Virus genome (UHGV): UHGV-0365687
DNA from: a virus
Strand: one strand, 5' to 3'
Length of the DNA: 35,238 nucleotides
Shown piece by piece: positions 26,599-35,238 of the stretch (the stretch's first letter is position 1; every line of letters starts with the position of its first letter). A program made the translations under genes and the position numbers. The notes below the pieces were generated by a model. That model did no database searches. It had not been told where the DNA came from and saw only the letters and a program-made list of their open reading frames with translations.

Positions 26599-26709
26599 TT
26601 TACGGGATTCTGAAATCCCGTTTTTGTCTGTTTTGTGCTCGCTTCATATATCGCTGCGCGTTTTTTGCTCATTTACGGGATTCGTGAGTCCCGTTTCTGT
26701 CTGTTTTTT
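26599..26709. repeat. two ~36-38 bp direct repeats, each a palindromic hairpin plus T-tract (parC-like candidate)
   Basis: tttacgggattctgaaatcccgtttttgtctgtttt (26599-26634) and tttacgggattcgtgagtcccgtttctgtctgtttttt (26672-26709). Confidence 0.5.
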
Positions 26710-29466
26710 GTTTCCACTGGTCAGGCCACCCCGCAGCAGGTCTGCTTTGCGGCGGGCGCGTTCAGTGGTTTCACTGATTCTCTGTGCGTGCTCTGCGTCG
26801 CGGATGGCGCGCAGCATGTCAGAAAGCACGGTAACGGGGGTTTTCATGGTGTTCTGGTCCTGCTGAAGTGTGGATGCCAGGCGTGCGGCGGCTTCAGGGT
26901 CTGATGCCCCCAGCTGTGCCAGATAGCTGGCGATCGGGTTATGGCGGATCTCCGTGCTGCTTACGCCATGATTACGGCTCAGTCGCTGCCAGAGCTGCGT
27001 GATTCGGCTGTCCGGGCGGGTATCCGGTTTGCGTACAATTTCAAATCCCTGCGGTGCAATGATGCTGCCGTCAACGTACAGACTGCCGCCCCGTAACAGG
27101 TGCTGCATCTGTTGTTCACCGATATGCAGGCCGAGAGATTCAGCAGACTCCCGCCATTCTTTAGCGAGTAACTCGTGGTTATCAGGCAAAGGCCGCTGCT
27201 GTTTGCGGCTCTGTGTCCAGTTCTGCATTTCATCGCTGCTGTTTTTTGCCTGTTTGTCACGAAGCGAACGCATCAGCGCCCGGCGTTCGTGCCGTTTCAG
27301 TGAGCGCATCCATTCATTTACTTCAACGCCGTCAGGAAGCTGCGGCCACGGTGCTGGCCGTTCTTCCGGCTGTTCTGTCCCGTTGTTGCCTGTTTCCTGT
27401 ACACGGGGACAGTTATTGCCACGAGTCCAAGGGGCGGCAGGGCCGCCCTGAAGGTCAAAACCATTTTCGCGGGTGCTGTCTTCCGCTTCCGGTTTACGTC
27501 TTACCAGCTTCCAGTTATCCGGATGCGTGCACACACGGGAGGATTCCCCGATGAGTGGCGACCAGATCCCGTAAATCTGTACACTCTGTTCGCCGTAATC
27601 GTTCAGCTCATCGGCGAGATCGTAGGCGGTGCGAATCAGGTAGTCTTTGCGTGGAACAAGTACGCCGCCCTGTTTTTCAATGTAGGTGGCAAAACATCCG
27701 GCATCAGCGGCAGCAAGAACCGCATCCATTGCGTCATCCTTCAGCCGTTGCGGGCCTTCCGGGTTGCGAGCCATCTGGCTGGCAAGGCGGCGCAGTTCAC
27801 GCCATACCTGACGGGAAGGGATGCCAAAGAACTGGAACTGGCGGACCCGGTGAAGACGTGCCCAGCCGATGGCACGTTCCACGCTCTCGGCCATTGATTT
27901 TCCGGTTTCGTGGTCAACGCGTGGCTTGCCCGTTTTCGGGTCGATGCCATCCACGGCGCGGCTGTCCAGGTTTTTTCCGATGTAGGTGGCGATATAGCTG
28001 GTCGGTGTGCCTTTTGAGCCGTCGACATACTCCACTTTAAAGCGCGGAGTAATATCATTGCCCAGCTCGTGGCGGTCTTCCTGAATGGCAATATCGCGGG
28101 TGATGGCCACGATGCTGTCGATTTCTTCCGGATGAGCAAAGACCATCATATGCCAGTGCACGGTGCCGTCATGGTGAGGCTCCACCGTGCGGATGCCATA
28201 CCAGCGCAGGCCGTCGCGATTCAGTTTTTTGCGGACCGCCGCAAAAAACGTGTTAACCAGGTAATCGCTGGAGTCGCGCATGGTGGCCCCGTTCCATTTG
28301 GGGTTCGGATGACCATTCTCCGTTGTTGCGTGGTATTTTGACGGGCAGGTGACAGTCAGAAACACCGCTTTGTCGCCACGGGCTTCGGCCAGAAGTTCCA
28401 GCCCCTTCATGGTGGCCATCATTTCTGCCTTACGGTGAACCGGGTTACTTACTCCCGCGTAATACACTGTCTCGAGATCAATCGTGAACCCGTCTTCGTT
28501 TTCCAGCATGAAACTTTTCAGGAAATCGCGTGTTTTCTCGCGCTGTGCGCGAAACTCGCTTAACGCGTCCTGGCTCAGATAGGGTGATGTTTTTCTGGAA
28601 ACCAGACAGGCGGCGCGGAGTTGTTCTTCTCTCCACTCGCAACGTAACAGCCACAGTTTGCGTTTCCACCATTCCGCACAGGTCAGGCGAAGGATTGCGC
28701 CCGGCAGCAGCTCCGTGTCCGGTTCGTTCCCCCGGTCTTTATCTGTTGTCAGTGCGTCATAATGTGGAGGCATGATGTGCAGGTGTAACGCCATGCGGGC
28801 CAGCATCTGATACGCCTTCAGCGTTACATCCATGGTCAGTTCGCCATCGGTCGCGCCAAAGCCATCGCAGAGTTTTTCGAAGGTGCTGCTGAACATCGCC
28901 GCCGTCATGGTGGCCAGCGTCTGTATCTGGTGTTTGTTGAGCTGCGGCAGGTAAAGCAAATCGTCCAGGCGTTCGCGTCCGGCAAGGGAGCGATAACCCG
29001 GTGTCAGCCAGTGTCCGTCAGTGCGATCCAGACGTTCGAATATTTTGCGCAGGGTTCCGCGTGCATAGCGTTCCGCCTGCCAGCTCTTTTTGCCTTTCCG
29101 GCGATCGGCTTCCTGTTTTTTGCGCAGGAAGGAGAGGTGGCGAATAAGCGGATCGCGCAGATAGGACGGCAGCAGGCGCAGCGAGGCCATGGCTTCATCC
29201 ACCGCGCCGCGTGCCTGTTTTCTGGCGTCTCCTGCCAGTGTGATGGTTTTGTCCTGTTTTTCCTGTGCGTCCAGGCTTTTATTAATCAGGTTGCCCAGTG
29301 GCGTGGCGGAGAACGCCGCATCAGCCATTTCCTGGCGGCGCTCGTTCTCTACCCGGTAGGCATCCAGCCAGGAGGAAAGCGCGGATTCAGGAGCGGGGAT
29401 CCCCGTTCCTTCACGCCCCACTGCGTGGCGCGGTTGTTGCCAGTCCCTGATGTACTCTGCCGTCAT
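26644..29466 (-). CDS. A: replication initiation endonuclease A (HUH rolling-circle initiator)
   Basis: 940 aa with HWHMMVF HUH motif, P2 A-like. Confidence 0.88.
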   Translation of the reverse strand: MTAEYIRDWQQPRHAVGREGTGIPAPESALSSWLDAYRVENERRQEMADAAFSATPLGNLINKSLDAQEKQDKTITLAGDARKQARGAVDEAMASLRLLPSYLRDPLIRHLSFLRKKQEADRRKGKKSWQAERYARGTLRKIFERLDRTDGHWLTPGYRSLAGRERLDDLLYLPQLNKHQIQTLATMTAAMFSSTFEKLCDGFGATDGELTMDVTLKAYQMLARMALHLHIMPPHYDALTTDKDRGNEPDTELLPGAILRLTCAEWWKRKLWLLRCEWREEQLRAACLVSRKTSPYLSQDALSEFRAQREKTRDFLKSFMLENEDGFTIDLETVYYAGVSNPVHRKAEMMATMKGLELLAEARGDKAVFLTVTCPSKYHATTENGHPNPKWNGATMRDSSDYLVNTFFAAVRKKLNRDGLRWYGIRTVEPHHDGTVHWHMMVFAHPEEIDSIVAITRDIAIQEDRHELGNDITPRFKVEYVDGSKGTPTSYIATYIGKNLDSRAVDGIDPKTGKPRVDHETGKSMAESVERAIGWARLHRVRQFQFFGIPSRQVWRELRRLASQMARNPEGPQRLKDDAMDAVLAAADAGCFATYIEKQGGVLVPRKDYLIRTAYDLADELNDYGEQSVQIYGIWSPLIGESSRVCTHPDNWKLVRRKPEAEDSTRENGFDLQGGPAAPWTRGNNCPRVQETGNNGTEQPEERPAPWPQLPDGVEVNEWMRSLKRHERRALMRSLRDKQAKNSSDEMQNWTQSRKQQRPLPDNHELLAKEWRESAESLGLHIGEQQMQHLLRGGSLYVDGSIIAPQGFEIVRKPDTRPDSRITQLWQRLSRNHGVSSTEIRHNPIASYLAQLGASDPEAAARLASTLQQDQNTMKTPVTVLSDMLRAIRDAEHAQRISETTERARRKADLLRGGLTSGNKKQTETGLTNPVNEQKTRSDI

Positions 29467-29472
29467 AGTGAT

Positions 29473-29838
29473 TTACTTCGTCATGCCATTCAGGGTGTCG
29501 CGGCAGACTGTAGCCAGCCGCTGAATTTCCAGCACGGTGTCTTCTGTGTCGGCATGGCGATGTGTGATGCGGATGCTGTCGGCAATCACATCGACGATTG
29601 CAGAGGATGGGCGCTGGTAAATGCCAATAACGGACGGGGTGCCACCTTCAATGCGGTAAAGCCTGTAATTTCCCTCGTGGCTGTCAATCATGTAGCGACC
29701 ATCAATAACAATCTTTCCGTCAGCGAGCTGCGGTACAGGCAGGGATTTCAGGTACATGTCATAACGATCACGCACGCGAGCGGCAAGATCACGCTCTGTG
29801 TTGAGCAGGTATTCAAGAAAGTCGTTGGCGAGAATCAT
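29473..29838 (-). CDS. hypothetical early protein
   Basis: ORF track, operon context only. Confidence 0.5.
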   Translation of the reverse strand: MILANDFLEYLLNTERDLAARVRDRYDMYLKSLPVPQLADGKIVIDGRYMIDSHEGNYRLYRIEGGTPSVIGIYQRPSSAIVDVIADSIRITHRHADTEDTVLEIQRLATVCRDTLNGMTK

Positions 29839-29910
29839 TGCGGCAATCCTCTTGTTACAGATGTGCGAAGGCCTCCCGCCGCAAGGTGCAGGAAAGGCCC
29901 GGAACAGGAA

Positions 29911-30141
29911 TTAATGGAGTTTGTTTTGCTGCTGGATGAGCTGCTGAAGCTCGCGCAGATCATCCGCCAGATAACTGAAAACAGCGGATGAGTAGAGGTT
30001 TGAAAGTTCGCAGCTACGCTCATGCAGCATATTGATGTGCATGATTTTAGCGACACGGAATGCGCGGGAAAGTCTGCGGTTGATTTCAGTCTGGATGTGA
30101 CGACGCTCCGCGATAGCGCGGTGCTGTTTGCGGTTTGCCAT
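29911..30141 (-). CDS. hypothetical small basic protein
   Basis: ORF with AAAGAGG RBS. Confidence 0.45.
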   Translation of the reverse strand: MANRKQHRAIAERRHIQTEINRRLSRAFRVAKIMHINMLHERSCELSNLYSSAVFSYLADDLRELQQLIQQQNKLH

Positions 30142-30461
30142 GGGGTGGCCTCTTTGGTTGTAAGTTTTGAAAACTCACCATCCAGAGCTGCGAAACTGTG
30201 GGTGGCGAGACGTACGGGGTTCGCAGTACCGGCAACCAAAGAACCCGGCCCGACCGAAGTCGGCCCCGTACGCCCCGCCATAATTCGTGTGCGAAAAAGA
30301 CGTGGCAATACAGTACGCACAAAAAAACCGCTGGCGCGGTTGTGCGCTTTGGTTGTCAGCAGGCTGCGAAACCCGGCACCCGTTTTATGAGGTGCAGCGG
30401 AAATGTAACCTGACTGATTGCGGCATGGCAAGCGGTTTTTTTGTGTGTGCATTATGATCAC
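30142..30461 (-). ncRNA. 320 bp non-coding, highly structured leader/intergenic element (candidate cis-regulatory RNA or sRNA)
   Basis: No credible ORF; nested inverted repeats (30211-30219/30264-30272, 30151-30160/30233-30242, 30321-30332/30431-30442). Confidence 0.25.
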
Positions 30462-31022
30462 TCAGTTTGGTAATAGCTCGTACAGTGCGGCGTCAGCAGC
30501 GACTCGGCGACCGTAAAGAGAACGTGCTGTGCGAGTGGTGATTTTTATTTGCAGTGTGTGATTAATGTGTTTTGCTATCATGGCGAACGTCATGTGCTGC
30601 TCATCATGTAGTTCAGTCACCAGTTCTACCAGGTGATCGCTGTATTTGGTCAGGTGATGGAGTTCCCCGCATTTTTGTAGGCTGTAACCACGTTTATTCA
30701 GGTGTGCTTGTACGGTGCGAGGGGTGCATCCCGCCTCGGCGGCCAGTTCCCGCGCTGTTCTGGCGCGGCGGTTTTCGATGAGAAAGGCGATCTCTTTTGC
30801 ACTCAGTGTCTTTTTCTTGCGGCCAATCAATCCACGATCACGTAAAAAACTAAGTCGGTGCATAACTGCGTCATGGGTTCGTTGAATTCGTTCAGTTATC
30901 TGGTGCGTGTTGCACTCCGGATAAAGCGAGATAAGCATTTCATCTTCCTGTTGTGTCCATGGCTTTACATGTGCCGGAGCCACGCCAGGTGTACCCATTG
31001 GTTTGAGTTTGAAGTTGTGCAT
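30462..31022 (-). CDS. HTH DNA-binding early protein (possibly replication accessory, B-like)
   Basis: 186 aa, helix-turn-helix-like segments; family not recognised with certainty. Confidence 0.5.
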   Translation of the reverse strand: MHNFKLKPMGTPGVAPAHVKPWTQQEDEMLISLYPECNTHQITERIQRTHDAVMHRLSFLRDRGLIGRKKKTLSAKEIAFLIENRRARTARELAAEAGCTPRTVQAHLNKRGYSLQKCGELHHLTKYSDHLVELVTELHDEQHMTFAMIAKHINHTLQIKITTRTARSLYGRRVAADAALYELLPN

Positions 31023-33457: not shown

Positions 33458-33784
33458 TCATGCAGCAAAATTAAGGAAGCCTAATCCCAAATCTTCCGCC
33501 AGCTTCTTGGCTTTCTTAAGCCAGTGATTGCGCCAATCTTTACGCTCAGGAGGAAGCTGTTTCGTTGCGTCATAGACCATTTCGAGCCACTCATTCCAAA
33601 GGATGAGAAGACGGCGCGAACTCCCTTCCTCGCCTAAAACCTCGCGCTCAGTAGTTAGAGGGATGAGTCGACGCTCTACCAACTTTCTTACGGCTGATTC
33701 GGTCTTACCTGTGCGGCGGGAAAACTCATCGACGGTGATGGGGTCTGGGATCTTAAACAATGCCCTCAATAGTTCTTCATTCAT
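33458..33784 (-). CDS. cox: Cox-like excision/regulatory protein (first gene of early operon)
   Basis: Start MNEELLRALFKIPDPITVDEFSRRTGKTESAVRKL (HTH), divergent from C. Confidence 0.6.
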   Translation of the reverse strand: MNEELLRALFKIPDPITVDEFSRRTGKTESAVRKLVERRLIPLTTEREVLGEEGSSRRLLILWNEWLEMVYDATKQLPPERKDWRNHWLKKAKKLAEDLGLGFLNFAA

Positions 33785-33879
33785 GTGATAATCTCCCTGT
33801 TTGGGGTATTTCTTGCGACGGATGCCCCAAATCAAACTCATTTGTATAAACATTAATACAGACGTTGGAGAATTGCAAC
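33785..33879. promoter_or_regulatory. lysis-lysogeny switch region with divergent promoters; inverted repeat tttgggg-N18-ccccaaa (33800-33831)
   Basis: Position between cox and C; palindrome and tataaa-like element read directly. Confidence 0.45.
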
Positions 33880-34182
33880 ATGCGTATGACTATTGGAGAG
33901 CGCATAAAAATCATGCGTGAAAGCGAGAGACTTACCAGCCTCCCGGATACAGCAAAAATGCTTGGTTTAAACCGTGATGCTCTGTGGAGATATGAAAGCG
34001 GTAAAACTATCCCTAATGCTGAAGTAATTGAGCAAATACTAAACAACCCCAGATTTGAGAAATATGCGTTGTGGTTTATGACTGGGAAAATTGCGCCTGA
34101 ATCCGGGCAGATAGCTCCGGCTCTCGCACACTATGGGCAAGAGCCAACGGACTTACCCCCATCCGAAAGGAAAATTGGCTAA
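33880..34182 (+). CDS. C: immunity repressor C
   Basis: Start MRMTIGERIKIMRESE with GGAG RBS; FMTGKIAPESGQIAPALAHYGQ resembles the P2 C C-terminal region. Confidence 0.8.
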   Translation: MRMTIGERIKIMRESERLTSLPDTAKMLGLNRDALWRYESGKTIPNAEVIEQILNNPRFEKYALWFMTGKIAPESGQIAPALAHYGQEPTDLPPSERKIG

Positions 34183-34248
34183 CCCTTTATTATTCTTACG
34201 TTTTACAAACTGGAAATGTCTTTCCTCGTTTCACCGGAGGGCTTGCCA

Positions 34249-35238
34249 ATGGCAATTAAAGCGCTCGATGGTGGACGGTATAAAGTGGATGTTAGACCGC
34301 GTGGCCGAAGTGGACGTCGGATTCAGCGGATTTTTAAGAAAAAGGCAGATGCAGTGGCCTTTGAGCGTTATGTTCTCAGCCACATGCACGATAAGGAATG
34401 GCTTGAAAAGCCAACAGAGCAACGTCATCTCTCAGATCTGCTTCCGTTATGGTGGGAATTGGGTGGACGCAATAAGCCATATGCTAACGGCGTTCTAACC
34501 AGGTTGAAAAAAATCATCAAAGAAATGAATGATCCAAGGGTTAGCCAGATTAATGCTCGTTTCATGGCCGCTTATCGAAGCTCCCGTTTATCCTTGGGAG
34601 TAAAAGAGTCTACTGTTCGGCGTGATGAGTCGGATCTCGGAGGAATGTTTACACTCCTGGCAAATGCCGGGGAATTTCACGGAGAAAATCCGCTCCGCGC
34701 CCTCCCCTCTTTGAAACGAAAATCACCCGAAATGACGTATCTCACCACGGAAGAAATCGCCAAATTACTGGATGCAGTAAGCGGTGATGCCCGGCGGATT
34801 ACGCTACTTTGTCTCAGTACTGGGGCGAGATGGGGAGAAGCGAAAAATCTGCGCGCGGAACACATCATCAATAATCGCGTGACGTTTAACAAAACTAAAA
34901 ACGGAAAAGTTCGAATTATTCCTGTCTCTGATGAAGTTGTTAGTGAGATCAAAACAAAGAAATCCGGCCTTTTGTTTGACGTCAATTATGAGGAATATCG
35001 CAAGGTGCTTCGCAGTGTTAAGCCAGACCTACCAAAAGGACAGGCTGTACATGTTCTACGCCATACCTTTGCTGCTCACTTTATGATTAATGGAGGAAAT
35101 ATACTTACGCTCCAGCGAATTATGGGGCACGCTACGATCCAGCAAACTATGACCTATGCGCACCTCGCTCCTGATTTCCTCCAGGATGCAATTTCACTTA
35201 ATCCGTTAAAAGGAGGCATCCACATTTCATCCACATAA
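34249..35238 (+). CDS. int: tyrosine integrase (P2 Int-like)
   Basis: Start MAIKALDGGRYKVDVRPRGR with GGAGG RBS; C-terminal HxLRHTFA...Y catalytic region; stop at window end. Confidence 0.88.
   Translation: MAIKALDGGRYKVDVRPRGRSGRRIQRIFKKKADAVAFERYVLSHMHDKEWLEKPTEQRHLSDLLPLWWELGGRNKPYANGVLTRLKKIIKEMNDPRVSQINARFMAAYRSSRLSLGVKESTVRRDESDLGGMFTLLANAGEFHGENPLRALPSLKRKSPEMTYLTTEEIAKLLDAVSGDARRITLLCLSTGARWGEAKNLRAEHIINNRVTFNKTKNGKVRIIPVSDEVVSEIKTKKSGLLFDVNYEEYRKVLRSVKPDLPKGQAVHVLRHTFAAHFMINGGNILTLQRIMGHATIQQTMTYAHLAPDFLQDAISLNPLKGGIHISST

What the first reader, a model, noticed from the sequence alone, without database searches (positions are those of the whole stretch)
30142..30461. 320 bp ORF-free, highly structured region inside the early operon
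Between the HTH protein gene and the next small ORF there is no plausible coding frame but dense nested inverted repeats. One 10 bp pair (30151-30160/30233-30242) would, in the minus-strand mRNA, pair an upstream UCUUUGGUUG with CAACCAAAGA overlapping the AAAGAGG RBS of the 29911-30141 ORF, a classic translational-sequestration arrangement. A 12 bp pair (aaaaaaaccgct/agcggttttttt, 30321-30332/30431-30442) brackets about 100 nt, and a ccgac-cgaa-gtcgg tetraloop hairpin is present.
Basis: seen in the sequence. Interest (0 to 1): 0.45.

Follow-up and report, generated by a model that had tools for sequence, protein, structure and literature searches.

The report
C4/IsrK antisense RNA immunity switch
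The "structured gap" holds two known small-RNA genes, an IsrK-like leader and a C4 antisense RNA, whose loops pair with the ribosome-binding site of the next gene, a P4-epsilon-like anti-repressor; the kind is well known, but here it sits unannotated in a P2-like E. coli prophage.

Summary
Every repeat is at the stated coordinates.

The region is not an anonymous leader. On the minus strand Rfam finds an isrK RNA (30395-30321, 65.9 bits) and a C4 antisense RNA (30285-30198, 87.1 bits).

That gene is homologous to the P4 epsilon anti-repressor.

In 59 distinct copies of the cassette the stems are almost invariant. Six short segments (a1/a'/a2 and b1/b'/b2) are hypervariable and co-vary three ways: 5 a-types, 17 b-types, 95.8-100% of cells paired.

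This is the P1/P7 immI and P4 CI logic. An RNA repressor blocks translation of an anti-repressor, and probably expression of replication gene A downstream.

The host phage is P88-like (Xuanwuvirus) and carries a P2 C-type repressor, the known target of P4 epsilon.

The 12-bp pair joins an invariant A-tract just upstream of the cassette's promoter to the IsrK terminator. Its function is unresolved.

The open frame across the region (Pfam Phage_ASH, "ash family protein" in RefSeq) shows no coding signature.

Verdict: a new, unannotated member of a known kind.

The parts
30431..30445 (-). Upstream arm CACAAAAAAACCGCT (extended 30428-30455). An A7 tract with CCGC, lying directly 5' of the -35 hexamer. 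It is perfectly complementary to the IsrK terminator 3' arm, U-tract and GUG (30332-30318). It is either a UP-element-like tract or an anti-terminator arm present only in transcripts arriving from the early promoter.
   Evidence: (I1). It is invariant in 59 cassettes, so covariation gives no test. Duplex energy is -26.9 kcal/mol, against -9.0 for the terminator hairpin. It is absent from 40 other C4 loci.
30403..30431 (-). Sigma-70-type promoter of the cassette: -35 TTGCCA (30431-30426), 17-nt spacer, -10 TTACAT (30408-30403). The predicted start is about 30395. It occupies the same position as PLE of P4.
   Evidence: promoter scan; both hexamers and the spacing are invariant even where the spacer sequence diverges (L113, L157, L163); the same layout in P4.
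30321..30395 (-). IsrK-like small RNA / leader. Hairpin 1 is 30395-30376. Hairpin 2 is 30375-30360 and carries decoy site a1 (30372-30364). Decoy site b1 is 30355-30347. The intrinsic terminator is 30341-30326, with a U7 tract running to 30321.
   Evidence: RF01394, 65.9 bits, gathering score 50. (terminator); a1-a' has 4 of 7 pairs and b1-b' 7 of 9 pairs changed on both sides, with 99.8-100% of cells paired.
30286..30320 (-). Spacer between the IsrK terminator and C4. It contains a second promoter-like site (TTGCCA N17 AATTAT, 30308-30280) whose -35 hexamer is not conserved.
30198..30285 (-). C4 antisense RNA. It has a 17-bp outer stem, hairpin 1 with a UUCG loop (30263-30250), and hairpin 2 whose 12-nt loop is b' (30244-30233). 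The single-stranded junction a' is 30227-30219.
   Evidence: RF01695, 87.1 bits, gathering score 45.: -49.8 kcal/mol, z = -3.9; stems 99.9-100% paired, with compensatory changes in 5 pairs.
30188..30196 (-). Target site a2 (GUUUCGCAG), 2 nt after the 3' end of C4. It is complementary to a'.
   Evidence: D8; helix 8 has 4 of 7 pairs changed on both sides and 100% of cells paired.
30160..30178 (-). Small hairpin (GUGAGUUUU-CAA-AAACUUAC) between a2 and b2. It places b2 at its 3' foot.
   Evidence: (I11).
30149..30160 (-). Target site b2 (CAACCAAAGAG, 30160-30150). It overlaps the Shine-Dalgarno sequence AAGAGG (30154-30149), which lies 7 nt before the ATG at 30141.
   Evidence: Helix 7 has 6 of 11 pairs changed on both sides and 95.8% of cells paired. 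The b':b2 duplex is -14.2 kcal/mol.
29911..30141 (-). The regulated gene: a 76-aa homologue of the P4 epsilon (E) 'derepression' anti-repressor.
   Evidence: PF25738, 29.5 bits, gathering score 27. BLASTP against P4 epsilon, 29% identity over 66 aa, E 1e-8; pN/pS 0.41.
26644..29838 (-). Downstream genes likely to be subject to polarity: orf121 (29838-29473, unknown function, phrog_3237) and replication endonuclease A (29466-26644).
   Evidence: The polarity itself is inferred, not shown.

Best explanation
The region is a P1-immI / P4-CI-type RNA immunity cassette inside the early operon of a P2-like (P88/Xuanwuvirus) prophage.

Layout, as shown by sequence and comparison.
- A conserved sigma-70 promoter (30431-30403) starts transcription at about 30395.
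- The first 75 nt form an IsrK-like RNA that ends at a modest intrinsic terminator.
- Read-through transcripts continue into an 88-nt C4 RNA.
- C4 exposes two recognition segments: loop b', and junction a'.
- These pair with a2 (2 nt past C4) and b2 (over the Shine-Dalgarno sequence of the 76-aa epsilon-like gene).
- The IsrK RNA carries a second copy of both targets (a1, b1).

Inferred from the characterised relatives.
- C4 is cut out of the precursor and accumulates in the lysogen.
- It blocks ribosome binding at the epsilon-like gene, on its own transcript and on those of a super-infecting phage.
- The untranslated RNA is then terminated, so orf121 and replication gene A stay silent.
- The anti-repressor therefore cannot inactivate the phage's P2 C-type repressor.
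- The a1/b1 copy in short IsrK RNA acts as a decoy that can titrate C4 and switch the anti-repressor on, as IsrK does in Gifsy-1.
- The hypervariable a/b code sets immunity specificity.
For: Family membership.
- Rfam hits above the gathering score for C4 and isrK in the window.
- The same two hits in 12 variants carrying different a/b types.
- The same two hits in P4 itself, in the same order upstream of epsilon.

Covariation in 59 distinct cassettes (A1).
- C4 stems are 99.9-100% paired, with compensatory changes.
- b'-b2: 6 of 11 pairs changed on both sides. a'-a2: 4 of 7.
- a1-a': 4 of 7. b1-b': 7 of 9. Both are 99.8-100% paired.
- 0 of 500 shuffles reach the observed percentage paired or covariation score. 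Slid controls are 27-52% paired.
- There are 5 a' types, 17 b' types and 22 combinations. Cognate b' duplexes are at least 8-9 bp; non-cognate ones average 5-6 bp.

The regulated gene and its target.
- b2 always overlaps the Shine-Dalgarno sequence.
- The regulated gene is homologous to P4 epsilon.
- The phage repressor is P2 C-like (PDB 2l49/2xcj, E 5e-25). P2 C is the known binding partner of P4 E (PMC2995052).

Promoter and terminator are found by scan and are conserved.

Decoy plausibility.
- a':a1 plus b':b1 sum to -30.3 kcal/mol, against -24.7 for a2 plus b2.
- The MFE of the read-through RNA pairs a1b1 with a'b' in cis. This matches 'structure A' of Gifsy-1 IsrK (PMC4825925).

Expression in a relative. 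IsrK and STnc1160 (the stable RNA just downstream of IsrK, where C4 lies here) are highly transcribed in Gifsy-1 lysogens in all conditions tested (PMC7067206).
Against: There are no expression, processing or genetic data for this phage. RNase P processing, trans action, Rho-dependent polarity on gene A, and binding of the 76-aa protein to C are all inferred from relatives.

The cassette lacks the small first ORF through which the P1 and P4 systems work (icd in P1; kil/eta in P4).

The Rfam c4-a1b1 model is below threshold here (20.5 bits against 46.7).

In Gifsy-1 the equivalent region is read as a translated 'orf45' and IsrK acts as an activator, so the net sign of regulation in vivo is not settled.

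An open frame from the AUG at the 5' end of C4 persists for 148 codons in 50 of 57 variants and ends in an ATGA overlap with orf121. This is unexplained.
Confidence: 0.85

Rival explanations
1. A purely cis-acting leader. The upstream UCUUUGGUUG folds back on the RBS within the same mRNA as a simple sequestration hairpin, and no separate RNA product or trans action is involved.
For: The b'/b2 complementarity is real and covaries. The two sites are only 72 nt apart on one transcript, so cis pairing is physically possible. C4-type RNAs do also act on their own transcript.
Against: b' sits in the loop of a highly stable, independently folding 88-nt domain (-49.8 kcal/mol). That domain matches the C4 family end to end.

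A second contact (a'/a2) and a duplicated target set (a1/b1) covary with it, which a plain hairpin model does not need.

The 22 specificity combinations make sense only if recognition discriminates between molecules, that is, self from non-self.
Confidence: 0.08
2. The region encodes a protein: the 'ash family protein' of RefSeq (Pfam Phage_ASH), or the 148/208-codon minus-strand ORF.
For: The minus-strand frame is open from 30461 to 29835. Its translation hits PF10554 at 32.5 bits, gathering score 26.

PGAP calls an 'ash family' pseudogene over the equivalent of 30189-30452 in NZ_CP080260.

The frame is stop-free in 56 of 59 cassettes. From the AUG at 30281 it runs 148-149 codons in 50 of 57 variants, ending in ATGA on the orf121 start.
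Against: pN/pS in that frame is 0.94, no different from the other two frames (1.05, 0.73). In the part overlapping the epsilon-like gene it is 1.11, while the epsilon frame itself gives 0.41.

Variable sites are spread 26/30/35 over the three codon positions.

Indels of 1-2 nt in the RNA's variable loops truncate the ORF to 16 or 64 codons in four variants that keep every RNA feature. Three further variants have other lengths.

The Pfam match starts upstream of the predicted transcription start. The AUG has no Shine-Dalgarno sequence and lies inside the C4 outer stem.

Substitutions are explained base for base by RNA pairing.
Confidence: 0.04
3. The 12-bp (really 15-28 nt) long-range pair is a promoter-selective anti-terminator. 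Transcripts from the upstream early promoter contain the arm 30445-30431. That arm sequesters the 3' half of the IsrK terminator, so these transcripts read through to epsilon and gene A. Transcripts from the internal promoter lack the arm and mostly stop as short IsrK RNA.
For: There are 15 perfect base pairs (28 nt at 82%). The duplex is -26.9 kcal/mol, against -9.0 for the terminator hairpin.

The MFE of the long RNA uses this helix in place of the terminator hairpin.

The arm is retained in all 59 cassettes although the gene upstream differs; cassette homology starts 3-10 nt 5' of it.

None of 40 other C4 loci, P4-like ones among them, has a complement of 10 nt or more. P4 itself was checked by eye and has none.

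By my own estimate, eight extra matching bases flanking an A7/T7 pair have a chance probability of about 1e-5.
Against: Both arms are invariant, so there is no covariation at all.

L113 and L157 have A5 instead of A7 with no compensating change.

The A-tract lies at about -47 to -41 of the promoter, where a proximal UP element would sit. That alone could explain its conservation.
Confidence: 0.25
4. A Gifsy-1-type positive switch dominates. The read-through mRNA is intrinsically inactive because a1b1 pairs with a'b' in cis, and short IsrK RNA in trans activates translation. C4 does not act as a free repressor.
For: The MFE of the 266-nt read-through RNA is exactly that cis structure. Experimental precedent exists in Gifsy-1 (PMC4825925).
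Against: In that cis structure b2 and the Shine-Dalgarno sequence of the epsilon-like gene are left unpaired, so it would not silence this gene.

The covariation of b' with b2 and of a' with a2 shows selection on the repressor-target contact as well.

The two models are not exclusive.
Confidence: 0.3

Closest known systems
P4 immunity region (PLE - seqA - CI RNA - seqC - kil/eta - epsilon - orf151 - orf106 - alpha)
   Same: The order of Rfam hits is the same: isrK, then C4, upstream of epsilon (P4: 8692-8615, 8507-8420, epsilon 8175-7888).

The promoter has the same geometry relative to the first hairpin.

The regulated gene is a homologue of epsilon, and it is followed by the replication gene of the element.
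   Different: P4 has a 65-aa Icd-like ORF (the kil/eta region) between seqC and epsilon, and its b2 covers that ORF's RBS. Here b2 sits directly on the epsilon-like gene.

The spacer between the IsrK terminator and C4 is about 107 nt in P4 and 35 nt here.

The replication protein is a P2-type A nickase, not the alpha primase.

The host element is a complete P2-like phage with its own C repressor, not a satellite.

P4 lacks the upstream arm complementary to the terminator.
P1/P7 immI operon (c4 - icd - ant1/2)
   Same: An antisense RNA processed from the operon's own transcript pairs through two segments (a', b') with a2/b2, b2 covering an RBS. This prevents synthesis of an anti-repressor that would inactivate the primary repressor.

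a1/b1 copies lie upstream.

Sequence differences in a'/b' define heteroimmunity (PMC12197685; PMC8198154).
   Different: The anti-repressor here is epsilon-like (76 aa), not Ant, and there is no icd.

The leader here is an IsrK-type RNA with its own terminator.

The module lies in a chromosomal P2-like prophage immediately upstream of the replication gene.

Many more specificity types are seen (22 combinations) than the two classical ones.
Gifsy-1 isrK - orf45 (STnc1160) - anrP - isrJ locus of Salmonella
   Same: An IsrK RNA with a leaky terminator is followed by a C4-like stable RNA and an anti-repressor gene.

There is long-range cis pairing between the middle of IsrK and the C4-like region.

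Both RNAs are expressed constitutively in lysogens.
   Different: Gifsy-1 is lambdoid, and its cargo is AnrP.

The published model treats the C4-like region as a translated 45-codon ORF coupled to anrP, with IsrK as an activator.

Here the corresponding frame runs 148 codons, has no coding signature, and is broken in several variants.

Membership tests
C4 antisense RNA (Rfam RF01695) | Covariance-model score at or above the gathering score, with a full-length match | tested here: met
   87.1 bits against 45, model positions 1-87 of 87. Twelve variants score 76-83 bits.
C4 antisense RNA (Rfam RF01695) | Long outer stem enclosing two hairpins, supported by covariation | tested here: met
   The MFE structure equals the Rfam structure. 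Stems are 99.9-100% paired. Three outer-stem pairs and two hairpin-1 pairs change on both sides.
C4 antisense RNA (Rfam RF01695) | Two exposed segments (a', b') complementary to downstream targets a2 and b2, with b2 over a ribosome-binding site | tested here: met
   a'-a2 is 100% paired and b'-b2 95.8% paired, with 4 and 6 pairs changed on both sides. b2 overlaps AAGAGG, 7 nt before the ATG.
C4 antisense RNA (Rfam RF01695) | Excision from a longer precursor (RNase P) and action in trans as an immunity repressor | not testable with these tools
   This needs RNA mapping and genetics. It is known for P1/P7 and P4 from the literature and my own knowledge.
isrK Hfq-binding RNA (Rfam RF01394) | Covariance-model score at or above the gathering score; two 5' hairpins plus an intrinsic terminator | tested here: met
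   65.9 bits against 50. The terminator is found independently. Twelve variants score 57-72 bits.
isrK Hfq-binding RNA (Rfam RF01394) | Own promoter giving a short terminated form and a read-through form | tested here: inconclusive
The transcripts themselves were not observed.
isrK Hfq-binding RNA (Rfam RF01394) | Binds Hfq | not testable with these tools
c4-a1b1 motif (Rfam RF03163) | Covariance-model score at or above the gathering score | tested here: not met
   20.5 bits against 46.7; P4 scores 44.1. The function the motif stands for is nevertheless met: upstream a1/b1 copies complementary to a'/b', 99.8-100% paired, with 11 of 16 pairs changed on both sides.
P4 epsilon / 'Derepression protein' family (Pfam PF25738) | Sequence homology to P4 epsilon | tested here: met
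   29.5 bits against gathering score 27. BLASTP against P4 epsilon gives E 1e-8, 29% identity over 66 aa.
P4 epsilon / 'Derepression protein' family (Pfam PF25738) | Binds and inactivates a P2 C-type repressor | not testable with these tools
   The same phage does encode a P2 C homologue (33865-34182; PDB 2l49/2xcj, E 5e-25). Binding was not tested.
P1 immI operon / P4 immunity operon, full architecture | A small first ORF (icd in P1; kil/eta in P4) whose translation is the direct target of the antisense RNA and couples to downstream transcription | tested here: not met
   No such ORF lies between C4 and the epsilon-like gene, and b2 sits on the epsilon-like RBS itself. P4 has the Icd-like ORF.
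Ash protein family (Pfam PF10554) | Profile score at or above the gathering score | tested here: met
   32.5 bits against 26 for the minus-strand translation.
Ash protein family (Pfam PF10554) | Evolves as a protein-coding sequence | tested here: not met
   pN/pS is 0.94, with the other frames at 1.05 and 0.73. Frameshifts occur in several variants. Substitutions follow RNA pairing.

The most novel reading that the evidence does not exclude
Two linked possibilities.

First, the cassette may make read-through depend on which promoter fired. Only transcripts from the phage early promoter would carry the invariant 15-28-nt arm that disables the IsrK terminator and lets RNA polymerase reach the anti-repressor and replication genes.

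Second, P2-like helpers and P4-like satellites use the same C4/IsrK code and the same epsilon-type anti-repressor. Matching or mismatching a/b types could therefore give RNA-level cross-immunity or cross-induction between helper and satellite.
Probability: 0.2. Interest if true: 0.6.

Novelty: new member of a known kind. Interest (0 to 1): 0.35.

Why it matters
Annotation. About a quarter of complete E. coli genomes (1400 of 5426) carry DNA matching this cassette and its flanking genes. The records examined either leave the region blank, call a spurious plus-strand CDS over it (phage P88), or call an 'ash family protein' pseudogene. Recognising it as C4 plus IsrK corrects the annotation. It also suggests that Pfam PF10554 is largely a translation of RNA genes.

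Biology. A group of P2-like phages carries a second, RNA-based immunity layer guarding an epsilon-type anti-repressor. P2 itself is classically non-inducible (my own knowledge). This offers a candidate route for induction and for heteroimmunity in P88-like phages.

A natural experiment. The 22 a/b combinations, with three-way compensatory changes, map RNA-RNA recognition specificity.

Evolution. The shared module links helper phages to P4-like satellites.

Tried and rejected
- Coding hypothesis. I tested it because one minus-strand frame is open in 56 of 59 homologues and hits Pfam Phage_ASH. I rejected it on pN/pS, codon-position spread and frameshifts.
- Covariation for the 12/15-bp long-range pair. 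Both arms are invariant, so there is no information.
- The same long-range pairing in 40 other C4 loci. None has it, so it is not a general feature of the family.
- tblastn of the 76-aa protein against 50,697 phage records. It found only P88-type phages. The link to P4 epsilon needed a profile search and a direct pairwise comparison.
- orf121 against P4 orf151. No similarity.
- NCBIfam. No hit for either small protein.
- The genome-contig scan with the 76-aa protein. Only 3 loci.
- A LexA box near either promoter. I looked by eye and found none.
- The second promoter-like site in front of C4 (30308-30280). I did not adopt it as the C4 promoter. Its -35 is not conserved, and a start 7 nt after its -10 would remove the 5' strand of the outer stem.
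- Literature search for C4 in P2-like phages or Xuanwuvirus. No description found.

Full report
**1. Observation**

- The 10-bp pair 30151-30160 / 30233-30242.
- The 12-bp pair 30321-30332 / 30431-30442.
- The ccgac-cgaa-gtcgg hairpin at 30250-30263.

The repeat finder recovers and extends them: I2 is 19 nt, and I1 is 28 nt at 82% complementarity.
- I4: 30215-26 with 30364-75.
- I7: 30233-41 with 30347-55.
- D8: the direct repeat GCTGCGAAAC at 30187-96 and 30363-72.

The minus-strand RNA folds far better than shuffles (z = -4.2 for 332 nt; z = -3.9 for the 88-nt core).

The phrase "ORF-free" needs qualifying. A mechanical 208-codon minus-strand ORF (30461-29835) spans the whole region.

**2. 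What it is**

An Rfam scan of the window gives exactly two hits at gathering threshold. Both lie inside the finding, on the minus strand.
- C4 antisense RNA, RF01695: 30285-30198, 87.1 bits against 45.
- isrK, RF01394: 30395-30321, 65.9 bits against 50.

The related c4-a1b1 model overlaps isrK but is below threshold (20.5 bits against 46.7).

- The "upstream arm" of the 10-bp pair is the 12-nt loop (b') of C4 hairpin 2.
- Its partner (b2, 30160-30150) overlaps the AAGAGG Shine-Dalgarno sequence, 7 nt before the ATG at 30141.
- The tetraloop hairpin is C4 hairpin 1 (a UUCG loop).
- The C4 junction a' (30227-30219) matches a2 (30196-30188).
- Both targets are duplicated upstream inside the isrK RNA: a1 at 30372-30364 in the loop of hairpin 2, and b1 at 30355-30347.

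A sigma-70-like promoter (TTGCCA, 17 nt, TTACAT; 30431-30403) sits 7 nt before the first isrK position. A 6-bp stem with a U7 tract forms a terminator at the end of isrK.

**3. Context**

The window is a P88-like (Xuanwuvirus, Peduoviridae) E. coli prophage. Genes identified:
- Integrase, 34216-35238 (named by its position beside the repressor and my reading of the translation, not scanned against a family library).
- A repressor homologous to P2 C, 33865-34182 (PDB 2l49/2xcj, E 5e-25).
- Cox.
- A minus-strand early operon ending in replication gene A, 29466-26644 (PF05840).

The 76-aa gene regulated by b2 matches Pfam "Derepression protein" (29.5 bits against 27). It aligns with P4 epsilon at E 1e-8. 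P4 epsilon (E) is an anti-repressor that binds P2 C (PMC2995052).

P4 itself shows the same Rfam order, isrK then C4, upstream of epsilon. Its promoter geometry is also the same. The cassette is therefore a compact P4-type immunity region inside a P2-like phage.

Homology between P88-type phages starts at window 30452 or 30445 whatever gene lies upstream, which marks the cassette boundary. A DNA match to a query spanning the cassette and its flanks (29800-30600) occurs in 1400 of 5426 complete E. coli genomes.

In lambdoid and Stx phages the RNA part alone, about 30148-30402, is conserved at roughly 70% identity. The annotated features under those matches include antirepressor and Rha genes.

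**4. Comparative test**

I aligned 59 distinct cassette copies (A1). The promoter hexamers, stems and terminator are almost invariant. Six short segments are hypervariable, and they are exactly a1, b1, b', a', a2 and b2.

Pair counts:

| Contact | Pairs changed on both sides | Cells paired |
|---|---|---|
| C4 stems | 5 pairs | 99.9-100% |
| b'-b2 | 6 of 11 | 95.8% |
| a'-a2 | 4 of 7 | 100% |
| a1-a' | 4 of 7 | 99.8% |
| b1-b' | 7 of 9 | 100% |

No shuffle of 500 reaches the observed percentage paired or covariation score. Sliding the partner columns drops pairing to 27-52%.

There are 5 a' types and 17 b' types in 22 combinations. Twelve variants of different type still hit both Rfam models. 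Another 62 unrelated C4 loci show 42 b' loops and 19 a' types, so a variable recognition code is a family trait.

It supports the RBS-pairing idea, as part of a three-site recognition system.

**5. Coding rival**

The evidence pointing towards a gene:
- The minus-strand frame is stop-free in 56 of 59 copies.
- Its translation hits Pfam Phage_ASH (32.5 bits).
- RefSeq sometimes calls an "ash family protein" pseudogene there.
- The P88 record instead calls a plus-strand hypothetical CDS over C4.

The evidence against:
- pN/pS in that frame is 0.94, against 1.05 and 0.73 in the other frames.
- Where the frame overlaps the epsilon-like gene it is 1.11, while the epsilon frame gives 0.41.
- Variable sites spread 26/30/35 over the three codon positions.
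- Indels of 1-2 nt in the variable loops cut the ORF to 16 or 64 codons in four variants that keep all RNA features.

I conclude the region is not protein-coding as a sequence under selection.

One oddity remains. The frame starting at the conserved AUG at the 5' end of C4 (30281) runs 148-149 codons in 50 of 57 variants. It ends in an ATGA overlap with the orf121 start. It is the positional equivalent of Gifsy-1 orf45.

**6. Mechanism**

Shown here:
- The parts and their order.
- Their conservation.
- Selection on the four RNA-RNA contacts.

Inferred from P1/P7, P4 and Gifsy-1 (PMC12197685, PMC8198154, PMC4825925 and my own knowledge of the primary papers):
- C4 is processed from read-through transcripts of the cassette promoter and is present in the lysogen.
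- C4 occludes the RBS of the epsilon-like gene.
- Lack of translation exposes the RNA to termination, silencing orf121 and gene A.
- The anti-repressor is thus kept from the C repressor.
- Short IsrK RNA, which carries a1 and b1, can titrate C4. The summed duplex energies are -30.3 kcal/mol for a1+b1 against -24.7 for a2+b2.

The MFE of the 266-nt read-through RNA pairs a1b1 with a'b' in cis. This matches the "structure A" shown experimentally for Gifsy-1, so alternative conformers are likely here too.

**7. The 12-bp pair**

One arm is the terminator's 3' strand with its U-tract. The other (CACAAAAAAACCGCT, 30445-30431) lies upstream of the cassette promoter, so it is present only in transcripts coming from the early promoter.

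For a function:
- 15 perfect base pairs.
- A duplex of -26.9 kcal/mol, against -9.0 for the terminator hairpin.
- The long RNA's MFE uses this helix instead of the terminator hairpin.
- None of 40 other C4 loci has anything similar.

This would fit a promoter-selective anti-terminator that lets early transcripts reach gene A.

Against, or neutral:
- Both arms are invariant, so there is no covariation test.
- Two variants have A5 without compensation.
- The A-tract lies where a UP element would sit.

I leave this at about 25%.

**8. Verdict**

This is a known kind of system: a C4/CI antisense immunity RNA with an IsrK/seqA leader. It is a new, unannotated member in P2-like Xuanwuvirus prophages. 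Its particular features are:
- Direct control of an epsilon-type anti-repressor, with no intervening icd-like or kil/eta ORF.
- A position immediately upstream of replication gene A.
- A rich set of specificity types.

I found no description of C4 in P2-like phages in the searchable literature.

Noticed in passing
window 30189-30452 (- strand); L207 990-1253: RefSeq/PGAP annotates an 'ash family protein' pseudogene exactly over the isrK-C4 RNA region in NZ_CP080260. Pfam PF10554 (Phage_ASH) matches the translation of this RNA locus at 32.5 bits. That protein family may largely be a translation of conserved RNA genes.
   Followed up: yes
window 30281-29835 (- strand): An ORF starting at the conserved AUG at the 5' end of C4 stays open for 148-149 codons in 50 of 57 variants. 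It overlaps the epsilon-like gene in another frame and stops in an ATGA overlap with the orf121 start (29838-29835). It has no coding signature (pN/pS about 1). It is the positional equivalent of Gifsy-1 orf45, so translation without a functional peptide is possible.
   Followed up: partly
L002 3403-3591 (phage P88, KP063541 5033-5221): The P88 GenBank record carries a plus-strand 'hypothetical protein' CDS lying antisense over the C4 RNA. It is almost certainly spurious.
   Followed up: partly
window 30280-30308 (- strand): A second promoter-like site (TTGCCA N17 AATTAT) lies just upstream of C4 and overlaps it. The -10 is invariant, but the -35 varies (TCGCCA in many copies). P1 is reported to have two c4 promoters, so the site may deserve a test.
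   Followed up: partly
window 30160-30178 (- strand): An 8-bp hairpin lies between a2 and b2. In the L011-type cassettes the sequence differs but can still form a 5-bp hairpin (GGUGA/UCACC) in a shifted register.
   Followed up: no
L005 (NZ_JBQPOM010000071.1, 'Vagococcus sp. WN89Y'): A contig labelled as a Firmicute (Vagococcus) carries this enterobacterial P2-like cassette at 86% DNA identity and 84% protein identity. It looks like contamination or mislabelling of the assembly.
   Followed up: no
window 33865-34182 (+), 33458-33853 (-), 34216-35238 (+): The lysogeny module of the prophage is present. It comprises a P2 C-type repressor (PDB 2l49/2xcj, E 5e-25), a long Cox-like protein (131 aa; Phage_Cox at 24.6 bits, just under the cut-off) and an integrase that runs off the window end.
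   Followed up: partly
window 28930-29991 (+ strand): A 353-codon ORF lies antisense to replication gene A, orf121 and the end of the epsilon-like gene. It is probably a chance open frame in GC-rich antisense sequence.
   Followed up: no
L196, L202, L092/L175/L191 (viral contigs): Some recognition types are shared between P88-type cassettes and unrelated C4 loci. L202 has the window's a' (CTGCGAAC). L092, L175 and L191 have the GGAAC a-type. L196 has nearly the TTCTTCGTTTG b' loop. RNA-level cross-talk between different mobile elements is therefore conceivable.
   Followed up: partly
window 29839-29910 (- strand): A 72-nt untranslated gap separates the epsilon-like stop from the orf121 start. 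It is a possible site for the inferred Rho-dependent termination. I did not examine it.
   Followed up: no
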